IMG/VR virus record: IMGVR_UViG_2913147268_000002
DNA from: a virus
Lineage: Duplodnaviria > Heunggongvirae > Uroviricota > Caudoviricetes
DNA: 48,006 bases
Reading direction: 5' to 3' (one strand)
Shown: positions 43,592 through 46,745 of the stretch, one piece after another
Position numbering within the stretch: the stretch's first letter is position 1
Layout: each line of letters begins with the position of its first letter
Made by a program: the position numbers and the translations under genes
Notes under the pieces: model-generated
Databases searched by the model: none
Seen by the model: only the letters and a program-made list of their open reading frames with translations
What the model was told of the DNA's origin: nothing

Positions 43592-44104
43592 ATGGCAGAT
43601 AGTAACACCTATCGTGCATTTGCGTTGTTCGTCCAGGGAGAACGAGTTTTAAATTGCACTGAATACACTCCCGTCGATATGAAAATAATCGAAGATGATT
43701 TTAAGACGGGCGCTATGGATACAGCTATCACTCTGGACGGGGGAATGGAGAAAATGTCAGCCAGTTTTAAAGTCTCTGGCTCCGATTCTGGTGTGATGGG
43801 GTATTTGGGATTAATACCAGGTGCTAAAACAAGGTTCGAAATTCGAAGTGCATATACTGACAATTACGGTGTCAATTTTGAACGTATTGATACATATGAG
43901 GGGCTTATTACGGCGATTACTGATGACGCGCAGGGGACTGATTCAAAATCAGCAGTTGGGCAATCAGTAACGATTGCGCCGAGCTATTATAAACGAGTTC
44001 AAAATGGAAAAATTATTTACGAGATTCATCCTGCAAAAATGAAACGAGTAATTAATGGTGTTGACGTTCTTGCGGGCGTTGCTCGTATTCTCCATGTATA
44101 TTAA
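43592..44104 (+). CDS. Tail tube protein (P2 FII-like)
   Basis: 170 aa directly after the sheath gene; ends ...VINGVDVLAGV, similar to the P2 FII C-terminus. Confidence 0.7.
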   Translation: MADSNTYRAFALFVQGERVLNCTEYTPVDMKIIEDDFKTGAMDTAITLDGGMEKMSASFKVSGSDSGVMGYLGLIPGAKTRFEIRSAYTDNYGVNFERIDTYEGLITAITDDAQGTDSKSAVGQSVTIAPSYYKRVQNGKIIYEIHPAKMKRVINGVDVLAGVARILHVY

Positions 44105-44116
44105 AAGGCAAATAAA

Positions 44117-44398
44117 ATGGAATCATTATTAGACAGTATGACTATTACGCTCTCTCGCCCGTTTATTATTAAGGGGGAGAGCCGCGATACAATTACTATT
44201 CGCGAACCAAAATTACGCGACCGCATTATGTTCAGTAACGATAAAAGTGGTCTTGAAGAGCGGACAGCGACAATGCTGGCGCGCCTGGCAAATCTGGAGC
44301 GTGAGGATTTATATGCACTGCCTGCGTGCGATTACGATCAAATGGAGGCCGCATTTAACGAACTGGTAAAGCCTCCGAAAGACCGACATCAGATATAG
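44117..44398 (+). CDS. Tail assembly chaperone (P2 gpE-like)
   Basis: 93 aa immediately upstream of the tape measure gene; a -1-frame extension ORF (44359-44526) runs into the tape measure start. Confidence 0.6.
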   Translation: MESLLDSMTITLSRPFIIKGESRDTITIREPKLRDRIMFSNDKSGLEERTATMLARLANLEREDLYALPACDYDQMEAAFNELVKPPKDRHQI

Positions 44399-44506
44399 TT
44401 ATTCTGATTCCGTTTATTGCGAAAAAACTTGCCATCCCGCCCGATACGCAAATGGACCTGCCGTACCGGGTTTTTAATTTCTATGTAAACGAGGTCATGA
44501 AAATCG

Positions 44507-46147
44507 ATGGCTATTTCTCAAAACTTTAAAACGCAGGTTGTATTCGGTGGGCGAATAGACCCGTCGTTTCGTCGCGGTACAACAGAACTCAATGATGCGA
44601 TTCGGCAGACGTCGTCTACTGTCGGGAAATTAACGAAAAGTCAGGATAAATTAAAAGACAAAATCGCAGCAATGAAACTGGCAGGTAAAGACGTTTCTGA
44701 TTTATCTGCTCAGTATCAAAAGCTGGACCGTCGAATAAAAGCGACAACGCAGGACCAGGAGGCGCTGAATACTCAACTTGCTAAAAAACAGCGGCTGGAG
44801 AAGTGGACGGGTCGCGCAAAAGGAGCTGCAAAATGGGGCGGACGAGCCGCCGCAGGTGCGGTGAGGGCTACGGGGCGGGGTATCAAATGGGGGACACTTG
44901 GCGCGGCAGGGCTCATTGGCGGTGCTGCAGCTGGTGCGCTGGCAATGAATGCAGAGACGTCAGAAAAACTCGGTCTGGCGAAGTCCTACGGCGTTGGCGT
45001 CGAAAAATACGCTGCGTGGGAAAATATTGGTAAAGCCGCGGGCCTGAACGGCGAAAATATCGGGGATTTGTCTGAAGAACTTACAAATAAAATCGGCGAA
45101 ATCGGAAACGAAAAAAGCCTGAATCCCATGTTATTTCAAATTGGCCTGACGAAAAAACGAATGGCTGGCTGGGATCGGGAAAAACAGTTTAATGAGGTTA
45201 TGCGTCGCATCTCTGAAATGAAAGATGAGAAGCAAGCGGCGAGCCTCGCTGACCAGCTCATGGGGGGCGAGGCTAATAAGATCATGACGTATATGAAGGC
45301 GACGGGTAAAAGCTGGGAACAGACAATGTCTGACGCGCAAAAGTCGAATTTGTTAACAAAAGAGGGTGCGGAAGGGGCGGCGCGTGCGCATGTATCAGTG
45401 ACAAATCTGTGGGGCTCTATTACGTCGGGACTTGCAGATACACTCGGTAAAATCGGGGGGGAACTCGCGCCGACGTTTGACTCAGTACGTGAAACATTTA
45501 CATCCTGGTTTAAGGATAATCAGGGTGGTTTTGTCAGCACAATTACTGAGTGGGTAAAACCAGAAAATATGAAAAAAATGTGGGATGGCATCGTCAATTT
45601 TGGAGAAGGTTGCGTCAAATTCGGGAAGATTATATGGGCTGTCGTAAAGAAACTGGAGTGGCTTATTCCGGATGAAAAATCAGATGAAGAACAGAAAACT
45701 TATAATGACGAATATAATCGGGCATATCAAGAGTTTATGGATTCGGGAGGTAAATATTCACCGAACGCTGGATTGACTGCTGATAATATTGCGAAGGCAA
45801 AAGCCGAAGAGGCTGTCGAAAATATGCGGCATCCAGAACGGCAAGAACAGGCAAAATCTCAGGCAGAATCAATGCTCGCGTTTGTTAATCCATTATCCGG
45901 GATGGTAAATAAAAATACCGCGCCTGCAGCACTGGATTCGTCGACGTTAAATATTGATACGTTGAAGCAGGCAGTCTCGACACCTGCGCCGGAGCAAAAC
46001 AATAAAATCGAAATCAATATTGTCGGTGCGACAGATCCGCAGTCAATACAACAATCTGCAGCGTCGGGGGTGCTCGATGGACTGAGACAGGCTGCGAGTT
46101 CGTACAATCGTGGCGCGATGTTTGATAAACCAGCTGCGGCGGGGTGA
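44507..46147 (+). CDS. Tail tape measure protein
   Basis: 546 aa, Gly/Ala-rich segment and coiled regions, position after E/E'. Confidence 0.8.
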   Translation: MAISQNFKTQVVFGGRIDPSFRRGTTELNDAIRQTSSTVGKLTKSQDKLKDKIAAMKLAGKDVSDLSAQYQKLDRRIKATTQDQEALNTQLAKKQRLEKWTGRAKGAAKWGGRAAAGAVRATGRGIKWGTLGAAGLIGGAAAGALAMNAETSEKLGLAKSYGVGVEKYAAWENIGKAAGLNGENIGDLSEELTNKIGEIGNEKSLNPMLFQIGLTKKRMAGWDREKQFNEVMRRISEMKDEKQAASLADQLMGGEANKIMTYMKATGKSWEQTMSDAQKSNLLTKEGAEGAARAHVSVTNLWGSITSGLADTLGKIGGELAPTFDSVRETFTSWFKDNQGGFVSTITEWVKPENMKKMWDGIVNFGEGCVKFGKIIWAVVKKLEWLIPDEKSDEEQKTYNDEYNRAYQEFMDSGGKYSPNAGLTADNIAKAKAEEAVENMRHPERQEQAKSQAESMLAFVNPLSGMVNKNTAPAALDSSTLNIDTLKQAVSTPAPEQNNKIEINIVGATDPQSIQQSAASGVLDGLRQAASSYNRGAMFDKPAAAG

Positions 46148-46572: not shown

Positions 46573-46745
46573 TACAAAATCAAGCGCTACCAGAGCACTT
46601 AACAAGTATAAAAATAATAAAAAAAACTACGAACATAAATGTAAAACAACCTGATGGTATTTTTTTTGACGCCGAAATACTAATACCTCTCCGACTACTA
46701 AAATTAATTCTCATTATGAAATCCTTTTAATTAATGGGGCCCCAA

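What the first reader, a model, noticed from the sequence alone, without database searches (positions are those of the whole stretch)
44359..44526. Tail chaperone -1-frame extension present but no canonical slippery heptamer
The -1 frame relative to the gpE-like gene is open from 44359 to a stop at about 44524-44526, overlapping the last 13 codons of E and extending 42 codons to the tape measure start (..PTSDIVILIPFIAKKLAIPPDTQMDLPYRVFNFYVNEVMKIDGYFSKL). This is the expected geometry for the conserved E/E' chaperone frameshift. Within the overlap (CGAACTGGTAAAGCCTCCGAAAGACCGACATCAGATA) I cannot find a classical X-XXY-YYZ site, so the shift site may be non-canonical.
Basis: seen in the sequence. 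Interest (0 to 1): 0.4.

Follow-up and report, generated by a model that had tools for sequence, protein, structure and literature searches.

The report
Tail chaperone frameshift at A_AAG
This E. coli prophage very probably makes the usual long form of its tail-assembly chaperone by a -1 ribosomal slip, using a short, already known lysine slip signal (GUA_AAG) instead of the classical seven-base signal, so the finding is real but ordinary.

Summary
The -1 frame relative to the 93-aa gpE-like gene (44117-44398, Pfam PF10109) is open from 44359 to the TAA at 44524-44526. The overlap contains no X_XXY_YYZ heptamer.

In 26 related loci (E identity 48-100%):
- The -1 extension is always open, has no gaps and is conserved as protein. 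Its variable sites follow -1-frame codon periodicity (22/31, 11/31, 31/31 at codon positions 1, 2, 3). The +1 frame is not conserved.
- A -1-frame stop lies 2-4 codons before an invariant A_AAG (44368-44371, within G_GUA_AAG at 44365-44371). This is the only shift-prone motif in the overlap.
- Of 26 invariant, degenerate amino-acid columns in E, only this Lys keeps one codon (AAG 26/26). Another invariant Lys is AAA 22, AAG 4.
- The preceding codon is GUA, GCA or CUA, always NNA, even where the amino acid changes.

This matches the known A_AAG / NNA_AAG single-tRNA slip class (IS1222, Bacillus cdd). P2 gpE belongs to the same Pfam family and shifts at the same codons 84-85, but on U_UUU_UUG.

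I found no conserved stimulator. The product itself is inferred, not observed. RefSeq does not annotate it. Verdict: a new member of a known kind, of modest interest.

The parts
43592..44104 (+). Tail tube gene (FII-like), the upstream neighbour of the chaperone gene
   Evidence: 170-aa ORF. Pfam PF04985 Phage_tube, E=1.5e-21. RefSeq annotates it as 'phage major tail tube protein'.
44117..44398 (+). gpE-like tail assembly chaperone, short (0-frame) product of 93 aa, stop TAG at 44396-44398
   Evidence: Pfam PF10109 Phage_TAC_7, E=1.7e-15, residues 9-84. phrog_166 'tail protein', E=1.8e-25. RefSeq annotates it as 'phage tail assembly protein'.
44356..44358 (+). TAA stop in the -1 frame, the 5' limit of where the shift can occur
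   Evidence: Read directly from the sequence. In all 26 relatives a TAA or TGA in the -1 frame lies 2-4 codons before the AAA of the slip site.
44365..44371 (+). Proposed slip site G_GUA_AAG (0-frame codons Val84 GUA and Lys85 AAG). The essential core is A_AAG at 44368-44371.
   Evidence: It is the only shift-prone tetramer or heptamer in the overlap. A_AAG is invariant in 26/26 loci. The 5' codon is GTA in 24, GCA in 1 and CTA in 1, always NNA. The Lys85 codon is the only one of 26 invariant degenerate columns whose third base never varies.
44368..44526 (+). E' extension read in the -1 frame after the slip (Lys, then ASERPTSD...GYFSKL; 52 codons after the Lys; stop TAA 44524-44526). The predicted E+E' fusion is 137 aa.
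   Evidence: The ORF is gapless and conserved in 26 loci. Variable sites between the E stop and the TMP start, by -1-frame codon position, are 22/31, 11/31 and 31/31. There are 13 invariant amino-acid columns with varying synonymous codons. No column has a conserved start codon.
44507..46147 (+). Putative tape measure gene (546 aa). Its first 20 nt overlap the end of E'.
   Evidence: ORF listed. It sits between E and the gpU-like gene (PF06995). It matches phrog_3654 and has no Pfam hit above threshold. The function is inferred from position only.
44380..44415 (+). Candidate stem-loop starting 8 nt 3' of the slip site (core AUCAGA/UCUGAU). It is not supported as a conserved stimulator.
   Evidence: MFE fold (99 nt, z=-2.05). 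Hairpins occur at a similar place in several lineages. There is no covariation: 63.7% of cells paired against 63.2% in shuffles. Stability is ordinary compared with other windows of the same loci, median percentile about 0.4-0.5.
44344..44348 (+). Shine-Dalgarno-like GGAGG, 16 nt 5' of the heptamer. A doubtful stimulator.
   Evidence: Read from the sequence. GAGG is present in 22/26 relatives and absent in L051, L052, L054 and L058. It coincides with conserved Glu-x codons.
44440..44475 (+). Stable hairpin CCCGAUACG/CGUACCGGG followed by UUUUU, inside the E' coding region. A side observation, not part of the slip signal.
   Evidence: Present in 20/26 relatives with dG of -13 to -20.6 kcal/mol. 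Median stability percentile within each locus is 1.9%.

Best explanation
The gene pair is the E/E+E' tail assembly chaperone pair of a prophage with a P2-type tail. The prophage is found in 453 of 5,426 complete E. coli genomes and is probably the ST131 's2' prophage.

Most ribosomes translate the 93-aa E protein and stop at 44396. A minority slip back one base when Lys codon AAG (44369-44371) is being decoded. tRNA-Lys (anticodon mnm5s2UUU) re-pairs from AAG to the overlapping AAA (44368-44370), borrowing the third base of the preceding GUA codon. Translation then continues in the -1 frame for 52 more codons to 44526. The result is a 137-aa E+E' protein that shares the chaperone domain and carries a C-terminal extension.

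The signal is a tetranucleotide (A_AAG), or read with its 5' codon a hexanucleotide (NNA_AAG). This is a single-tRNA slip. The P-site tRNA cannot re-pair properly. The 5' codon is always one read by a cmo5U34 tRNA (Val GUA, Ala GCA, Leu CUA).

What is shown: the -1 frame is coding; the shift window is bounded; and A_AAG is held at nucleotide level.

What is inferred:
- that the fusion protein is actually made;
- that its level is low (from measurements of A_AAG in other contexts);
- that, as with lambda gpG/gpGT and P2 E/E+E', the shared domain coats the tape measure protein while the extension recruits the tube protein.
For: Family and position. E hits PF10109. P2 gpE hits the same family. 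P2's annotated shift site T_TTT_TTG lies at E codons 84-85, the same codon numbers as Val84-Lys85 here. Gene order is sheath, tube, E, TMP, U, X, D.

The -1 frame is coding.
- It is 55-56 codons, gapless and conserved in 26 loci with 48-100% E identity, while +1 ORF lengths scatter from 9 to 66 codons.
- Variable sites by -1-frame codon position are 22/31, 11/31 and 31/31.
- Arg/Lys at -1 codon 5 is kept through AGA/CGA changes that alter the 0-frame residue.

The shift window is bounded. A -1-frame stop lies 2-4 codons 5' of AAA in all loci, and the E stop lies 8-11 codons 3' of it.

The motif is selected at nucleotide level.
- A_AAG is present in 26/26 loci.
- It is the only one of 26 invariant degenerate columns with a fixed third base; another invariant Lys is AAA 22, AAG 4.
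- The 5' codon ends in A even where Val becomes Ala (GCA) or Leu (CTA).
- The first -1 codon after the slip always starts with G although its amino acid varies between A, D, G and V.

It is the only shift-prone motif in the overlap.

Literature.
- A_AAG is by far the best Z_ZZN tetramer in E. coli (PMC4066793).
- A_AAG-type -1 shifting is used at G_CGA_AAG by IS1222 and occurs at A_CGA_AAG in Bacillus cdd. In NNA_AAG motifs, 5' codons read by tRNAs with greater wobble propensity shift more (PMC5009743).

No conserved start codon exists in E'.
Against: There is no direct evidence that the fusion protein exists: no proteomics, ribosome profiling or reporter data were available.

No conserved stimulator was found. 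The proximal hairpin has no covariation and ordinary stability. The SD-like GAGG is missing in 4 of 26 relatives and sits 16 nt away. No Rfam family matches. In the IS3 reporter context, tetramer-containing constructs without a pseudoknot averaged about 0.15%, barely above their no-motif controls, while A_AAG with the IS3 pseudoknot reached about 5.6% (PMC4066793). The efficiency here could therefore be very low.

E' has no Pfam or PHROG hit. Its relation to P2 E' (PF06528) is only suggestive: hhalign E=7e-4, probability 26%.

The 26 loci are phylogenetically related, so the counts are not independent events.

Gene D of this same prophage is split by a frameshift. The tail module in this particular window may therefore be decaying.
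Confidence: 0.75

Rival explanations
1. A -1 frameshift does make E+E', but it occurs at another place or by another route within the 37-nt overlap. Examples would be P-site-only slippage further 3', or a lineage-specific site such as C_CCG or A_AAA.
For: Some relatives carry extra weak motifs after the Lys codon. CCC_CCG occurs in L005 and others, and GAA_AAA in L028 and L029. No experiment fixes the site.
Against: These motifs are absent from the window itself, which has CCT_CCG and CCG_AAA with no Z_ZZN apart from A_AAG. They are also not conserved. Only A_AAG shows nucleotide-level invariance. Conservation of the -1 frame begins right after the Lys: Pro at codon 3 and Arg/Lys at codon 5.
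Confidence: 0.1
2. The frameshift is real in the phage family, but in this window it is a relic. The prophage is defective, so E+E' no longer matters here.
For: Gene D is split into two frames: 46962-47735, and a C-terminal part in a frame open from 47682. Relatives have a single ORF of 346-351 aa. RefSeq marks D as a frameshifted pseudogene in ST131, according to PMC9205054.
Against: The E, slip-site and E' sequences are intact and at least 99% identical in 427 of the 453 matching complete genomes. Within the close clade, E' changes are few and conservative. PMC9205054 scores the prophage as intact and argues that the D call may be an annotation problem. This rival does not contradict the mechanism.
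Confidence: 0.15
3. E' is translated on its own, by internal initiation or by re-initiation after the E stop, and not as a fusion.
For: Gene callers occasionally output a 40-aa E' fragment (P0048-P0050). Hafnia phage yong2 has a 39-aa 'hypothetical protein' annotated there.
Against: No column of the -1 ORF holds ATG, GTG or TTG in all sequences. The best columns reach 13/26 and would leave only 10-14 residues. Conservation of the -1 frame starts upstream of the E stop. In P2 the homologous arrangement is annotated as a -1 frameshift fusion.
Confidence: 0.03
4. The open -1 frame is a chance ORF or a by-product of other constraints, and nothing is made from it.
For: The +1 frame is also open for 35 codons in the window itself. 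A single sequence alone therefore proves little.
Against: The +1 frame is broken at variable places in relatives, whereas the -1 frame keeps its length and its sequence. Variation follows -1-frame codon periodicity: all 31 third positions are variable against 11/31 second positions.
Confidence: 0.02
5. The fusion arises by transcriptional slippage, with RNA polymerase adding a base, rather than by ribosomal slippage.
For: Database variants with one-base indels that fuse E to E' exist (P0001, P0002).
Against: The longest homopolymer in the overlap is AAA. That is far shorter than the runs known to cause polymerase slippage (established knowledge). Indel variants in the opposite direction, giving +1 fusions (P0003, P0005), are equally present and look like sequencing or assembly errors.
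Confidence: 0.02

Closest known systems
Bacteriophage P2 gpE / gpE+E' (-1 programmed frameshift in the FETUD tail operon)
   Same: Both have a chaperone domain of the same Pfam family, PF10109, and the same place between the tube gene (FII) and the tape-measure gene (T). Both shift at codons 84-85, right at the end of the domain. In both, a -1 extension of about 52-57 residues ends just inside the T gene.
   Different: P2 uses the canonical heptamer U_UUU_UUG, and this window uses G_GUA_AAG. There is no BLASTP similarity between the two E proteins. P2 E' hits PF06528 at 2e-22, while this E' does not. Profile-profile similarity is only weak: E=7e-4, probability 26%.
Hexanucleotide/tetranucleotide A_AAG -1 frameshift sites (IS1222 G_CGA_AAG; Bacillus subtilis cdd A_CGA_AAG; NNA_AAG series of Licznar et al. 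2003, as summarised in PMC5009743)
   Same: The 0-frame register is NNA_AAG. tRNA-Lys re-pairs from AAG to AAA without cognate re-pairing of the 5' tRNA. The 5' codon is read by a tRNA with extended wobble: I34 for CGA, and cmo5U34 here.
   Different: Those are transposase or incidental cases. The reporter measurements of A_AAG were made with the strong IS3 pseudoknot as downstream stimulator. No conserved stimulator was found here. The GUA, GCA and CUA versions were not individually checked in a paper I could read.
Phage lambda gpG / gpGT (G_GGA_AAG)
   Same: The A-site event is the same (Lys AAG to AAA), and so is the logic: a low-level -1 shift sets the ratio of two tail chaperones that are absent from the virion (PMC5009743).
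   Different: In lambda the 5' half is canonical (GGA re-pairs to GGG). Here GUA cannot re-pair to GGU. No sequence relationship between the proteins was shown. Lambda has a non-contractile tail.
Sister clade: Hafnia phage yong2 and Citrobacter phage Chris1
   Same: E is 40-45% identical. The E' extension is recognisably homologous, with the DMPFSTF..F..E motif aligning to DLPYRVFNFYVNE. These phages also lack a canonical heptamer.
   Different: Their only shift-prone motif is U_UUU in GUU_UUU_AUG, two codons upstream of the equivalent position.
More distant PF10109 chaperones: Burkholderia phage Mica, Achromobacter phage Mano, Ralstonia phage phiRSP, Wolbachia phage WO
   Same: Gene order and the -1 extension are the same. 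Mica and Mano are annotated with a frameshift product.
   Different: All carry canonical heptamers near the E C-terminus: A_AAU_UUU, G_GGU_UUU, G_GGU_UUU and U_UUU_UUG.

Membership tests
Tail assembly chaperone frameshift pair (lambda G/GT, P2 E/E+E' type) | Two overlapping ORFs lie between the major tail (tube) gene and the tape measure gene, on the same strand | tested here: met
   Tube gene 43592-44104, E 44117-44398, -1 ORF 44359-44526, putative TMP 44507-46147.
Tail assembly chaperone frameshift pair (lambda G/GT, P2 E/E+E' type) | The upstream ORF is a recognised tail assembly chaperone | tested here: met
   PF10109 at E=1.7e-15, 57.2 bits against a cut-off of 25. P2 gpE hits the same family.
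Tail assembly chaperone frameshift pair (lambda G/GT, P2 E/E+E' type) | The extension frame is conserved as coding sequence in relatives and lacks its own start | tested here: met
   26 loci, gapless, with -1-frame codon periodicity of 22/31, 11/31 and 31/31. No conserved start codon.
Tail assembly chaperone frameshift pair (lambda G/GT, P2 E/E+E' type) | A canonical X_XXY_YYZ slippery heptamer lies in the overlap | tested here: not met
   None is present in the 0-frame register. The only motif is the tetramer A_AAG. A canonical heptamer is common in such pairs, but whether it is strictly required I know only from memory of the literature.
Tail assembly chaperone frameshift pair (lambda G/GT, P2 E/E+E' type) | A long fusion product is made at a low, fixed ratio and is needed for tail assembly | not testable with these tools
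   This needs reporter assays, proteomics and genetics.
A_AAG / NNA_AAG single-tRNA -1 frameshift motifs | AAG is a 0-frame codon preceded by a codon ending in A, so that tRNA-Lys can re-pair to AAA | tested here: met
   GTA_AAG at 44366-44371. NNA_AAG is invariant in 26/26 loci, and AAG is the only fixed synonymous site in E.
A_AAG / NNA_AAG single-tRNA -1 frameshift motifs | The 5' codon is read by a tRNA with extended wobble, the class that favours shifting | tested here: inconclusive
   GUA, GCA and CUA belong to the Val, Ala and Leu boxes whose U34 tRNAs carry cmo5U (PMC5909439). The rule is taken from the summary in PMC5009743. The primary paper (PMC212731) could not be read.
A_AAG / NNA_AAG single-tRNA -1 frameshift motifs | A flanking stimulator (3' hairpin or pseudoknot, or 5' SD-like sequence) raises the shift above background | tested here: inconclusive
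   A hairpin can be drawn 8 nt 3' of the site, but it has no covariation and ordinary stability. The SD-like GAGG is not universal. No Rfam match. Pseudoknots were not searched.
P2 GpE' extension domain (Pfam PF06528 Phage_P2_GpE) | The extension matches the PF06528 profile | tested here: not met
   No hit at E<=10 for the window E' or for any of 12 clade members, while P2 E' scores 2.1e-22. hhalign of the E' clade profile against P2, Mica and Mano E' gives E=7e-4 and probability 26%, collinear over 34 columns. Remote homology is possible but not shown.

The most novel reading that the evidence does not exclude
The slip is a stimulator-free hexanucleotide event, with its rate set by the wobble modifications of two host tRNAs: cmo5U34 on the 5' tRNA and mnm5s2U34 on tRNA-Lys. 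It is coupled to the strong terminator-like hairpin at 44440-44475, which lies in mRNA that only frameshifted ribosomes translate. Under this reading, ribosomes that shift would melt or prevent the hairpin. They would thereby tie transcription or translation of the low-copy genes T, U, X and D to the frameshift frequency, a form of frameshift-dependent attenuation.
Probability: 0.08. Interest if true: 0.65.

Novelty: new member of a known kind. Interest (0 to 1): 0.3.

Why it matters
RefSeq and the deposited phage records annotate only the 93-aa E protein in this prophage. The E' peptide is almost absent from a collection of 5.8 billion non-redundant proteins (clusters at 90% identity): only 4 hits. 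A probable essential tail-assembly product is therefore missing from the annotation of a prophage carried by about 8% of complete E. coli genomes. That prophage includes the ST131 element proposed to act as a tailocin (PMC9205054).

The case also gives frameshift-prediction tools a clean, comparatively validated natural example of an NNA_AAG site in a phage tail gene. Such tools mostly look for heptamers.

It does not change our understanding of frameshifting or of tail assembly.

Tried and rejected
- **Canonical heptamer.** None exists in the overlap.
- **+1 frame product.** The frame is open for 35 codons in the window but is not conserved in relatives.
- **Proximal 3' stem-loop as stimulator.** RNAalifold did not predict it. 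Covariation counts equal the shuffles. Stability is ordinary compared with other windows of the same loci.
- **5' SD-like stimulator.** GAGG is absent in 4 of 26 relatives, sits 16 nt from the site, and is explained by Glu codons.
- **Rfam frameshift elements.** No match at E<=10.
- **Direct homology to P2.** E against P2 gpE by BLASTP gave nothing. E' against PF06528 and PHROGs gave nothing.
- **Solved structures.** No relative by sequence.
- **Genome-contig scan.** It returned only one locus. A viral-contig scan with the E' profile returned the same 19 loci as the scan with E.
- **Fused database proteins P0001 and P0002.** They look like one-base indel variants or errors and are matched by +1 fusions (P0003, P0005), so I did not use them as evidence.
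- **Primary paper on NNA_AAG motifs (PMC212731).** It is not held.
- **Structure prediction of E+E'.** Not attempted. Only six E' sequences could have been submitted, and the result would not bear on the shift site.
Full report
**Observation**

The E-like ORF runs from 44117 to 44398 (93 aa, stop TAG at 44396-44398). Relative to it, the -1 frame is closed by TAA at 44356-44358. It is then open for 56 codons to TAA at 44524-44526 and reads RTGKASERPTSDIVILIPFIAKKLAIPPDTQMDLPYRVFNFYVNEVMKIDGYFSKL. The next long ORF starts at ATG 44507, so the extension overlaps it by 20 nt. A scan of the overlap in the 0-frame register finds no X_XXY_YYZ heptamer. It finds one shift-prone tetramer, A_AAG at 44368-44371, in GTA_AAG.

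**Identity and setting**

- The 93-aa protein hits Pfam PF10109 (Phage_TAC_7, 'E, or 41 or 14') at E=1.7e-15, and phrog_166.
- Upstream lie a sheath gene (PF04984/PF17482) and a tube gene (PF04985).
- Downstream lie a 546-aa ORF without a Pfam family (the putative tape measure protein, inferred from position), then a gpU-like gene (PF06995), with gpX-like and gpD-like genes inferred from relatives.
- The DNA is at least 99% identical to four Escherichia phage records. It is present in 453 of 5,426 complete E. coli genomes, always on the chromosome, including O25b:H4-ST131 strains.
- It is probably the conserved 's2-ST131' prophage with an R2-pyocin-like tail described in PMC9205054.
- Neither the phage records nor RefSeq annotate anything in the -1 frame.

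**Is the -1 frame coding?**

I collected 26 distinct loci with E identity of 48-100%. They come from IMG/VR and from E. coli, Escherichia fergusonii (per the source's protein name), Salmonella, Leclercia and Enterobacter assemblies.

- In all of them the -1 ORF is 55-56 codons, gapless, and conserved as protein. The consensus is ..DI.ILIPF.SK.LAIPPDTQLN.PYRVFNFYV.EL.K..GYFSKL.
- It ends 23 nt after the TMP start in 21 of the 25 loci where a TMP start was found. In L019, L020 and L022 it ends 47 nt after it, and L058 has no intact long TMP ORF.
- The +1 ORF varies from 9 to 66 codons and is not conserved.
- Between the last E stop and the TMP start, the variable columns fall at -1-frame codon positions 1, 2 and 3 as 22/31, 11/31 and 31/31.
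- Thirteen E' columns keep their amino acid while their codons vary.
- No column holds a start codon in all sequences.

**Where is the shift?**

In every locus a TAA or TGA in the -1 frame lies 2-4 codons before the AAA that overlaps Lys85. The E stop lies 8-11 codons after it. Within that window the only invariant nucleotides that form a shift-prone motif are A_AAG.

A codon alignment of E shows 26 columns with an invariant, degenerate amino acid. In 25 of them the third base varies. The exception is Lys85, which is AAG in 26/26. Another invariant Lys is AAA 22, AAG 4.

The preceding codon is GTA in 24 loci, GCA in L051 (Val to Ala) and CTA in L052 (Val to Leu). Its third base stays A even when the amino acid changes.

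The first -1 codon after the slip encodes A, D, G or V, but always starts with G. That is the G of AAG.

This is nucleotide-level selection for NNA_AAG. Chance presence of an in-frame NNA_AAG in 13 codons is about 0.04.

**Mechanism**

A_AAG is the most efficient Z_ZZN tetramer for -1 shifting in E. coli. With the IS3 pseudoknot the six tetramers clearly above background ranged from 0.26% to 5.6%, with A_AAG far ahead of the others. Without the pseudoknot, tetramer constructs averaged about 0.15%, barely above their no-motif controls (PMC4066793).

The review PMC5009743 makes three relevant points:
- The minimal -1 site is such a tetranucleotide.
- G_CGA_AAG is used productively by IS1222, and A_CGA_AAG shifts in Bacillus cdd.
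- In NNA_AAG motifs, 5' codons whose tRNAs have greater wobble propensity shift more, probably because they release the third-position A for tRNA-Lys.

Here GUA, GCA and CUA all belong to the boxes (Val, Ala, Leu) whose U34 tRNAs carry cmo5U (PMC5909439). Cognate re-pairing of the 5' tRNA is impossible: GUA would have to pair as GGU, GCA as GGC and CUA as GCU. The event is therefore best described as a single-tRNA slip.

What is shown and what is inferred:
- Shown: the sequence constraints and the fit to a described class of slip site.
- Inferred: that the 137-aa fusion is made, and that its level is low.
- Inferred: the roles of the two forms, by analogy with lambda gpG/gpGT, where the shared part binds the tape measure protein and the extension binds the tail tube protein (PMC5009743).

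**Stimulators**

- A stem-loop can be drawn from 8 nt after the site, at 44380-44415. Several lineages have a hairpin there, for example ACGGAA/UUCCGU.
- RNAalifold does not predict this stem-loop.
- Pair counts equal the shuffles: 63.7% against 63.2%.
- Its stability is ordinary within each locus, with a median percentile of about 0.4-0.5.
- An SD-like GGAGG lies 16 nt upstream. GAGG is missing in four relatives and coincides with Glu codons.
- Rfam gives nothing.

I conclude that no conserved stimulator is demonstrated. Pseudoknots were not searched.

**Comparison with known systems**

P2 gpE hits the same Pfam family. Its annotated shift, T_TTT_TTG, is at E codons 84-85, and its 57-residue E' ends inside gene T. 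The geometry matches this window closely.

The two E proteins share no BLASTP similarity. P2 E' is PF06528, whereas the E' here has no family hit. Profile-profile comparison gives only a weak, collinear match: E=7e-4, probability 26%.

Other PF10109 chaperones use canonical heptamers:

| Phage | Slip site |
|---|---|
| Burkholderia phage Mica | A_AAU_UUU |
| Achromobacter phage Mano | G_GGU_UUU |
| Ralstonia phage phiRSP | G_GGU_UUU |
| Wolbachia phage WO | U_UUU_UUG |

The nearest named phages, Hafnia yong2 and Citrobacter Chris1, have only U_UUU in GUU_UUU_AUG, two codons upstream, and a homologous E'. Within this family the slip motif turns over while the position and the product are kept.

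**Novelty and score**

The conserved chaperone frameshift and the A_AAG class of site are both established. What is new is their combination in this enterobacterial prophage lineage, its comparative support, and the fact that it is unannotated. E' is found only four times among the 5.8 billion non-redundant protein clusters searched. I rate it a new member of a known kind, with interest 0.3.

**Limits**

- There is no expression data.
- The loci are related, so the counts are not independent.
- The primary NNA_AAG paper could not be read.
- The fused proteins found in databases (P0001, P0002) look like indel variants and were not used as evidence.
- Gene D of this prophage is split by a frameshift, so the tail module in this window may be decaying.

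Noticed in passing
window 44440-44475: A 9-bp hairpin, CCCGAUACG / CGUACCGGG with a 13-nt loop, is followed by UUUUUAAUUU. It lies inside the E' coding region, about 69 nt 3' of the slip site and about 36 nt 5' of the TMP ATG. It is present in 20 of 26 relatives (dG -13 to -20.6 kcal/mol) and is among the most stable 36-nt windows of each locus (median percentile 1.9%). The Thr codon in its 5' arm is ACG in 20/20. It is absent in L052, L054 and L055. No compensatory changes were seen. It looks like an intrinsic terminator or attenuator, or a stability element, between the high-copy (sheath, tube) and low-copy (T, U, X, D) tail genes.
   Followed up: partly
window 46962-48006: The gpD-like gene is split. 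The N-terminal 257 aa (46962-47735) align to P2 gpD residues 15-210. The C-terminal part (P2 gpD 314-373) lies in another frame that is open from 47682 to the end of the window. Relatives have one ORF of 346-351 aa. The same split is seen in phage record ON470624, and PMC9205054 discusses it as a RefSeq 'pseudogene due to a frameshift' in ST131.
   Followed up: partly
L059 (Hafnia phage yong2) 830-840; L060 (Citrobacter phage Chris1) 775-785: The sister clade of chaperone genes also lacks a canonical heptamer. Its only shift-prone motif in the overlap is U_UUU in GUU_UUU_AUG. In yong2 the E' part is annotated as a separate 39-aa hypothetical protein.
   Followed up: partly
proteins P0001, P0002, P0003, P0005 (database variants of window 44117-44526): Public assemblies contain one-base indel variants that fuse E directly to the -1 frame (137 aa) or to the +1 frame (119 aa). 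They are probably sequencing or assembly errors near the slip region. Their DNA was not checked.
   Followed up: no
L025-L027 5413-5655 and L052 4857-5096 (minus strand, after the gpU-like gene): Several relatives carry a small reverse-strand gene with Pfam PF14373 (Imm_superinfect) inserted between gpU and gpX. The window has only a 44-aa reverse ORF at 46580-46714 in that gap.
   Followed up: no
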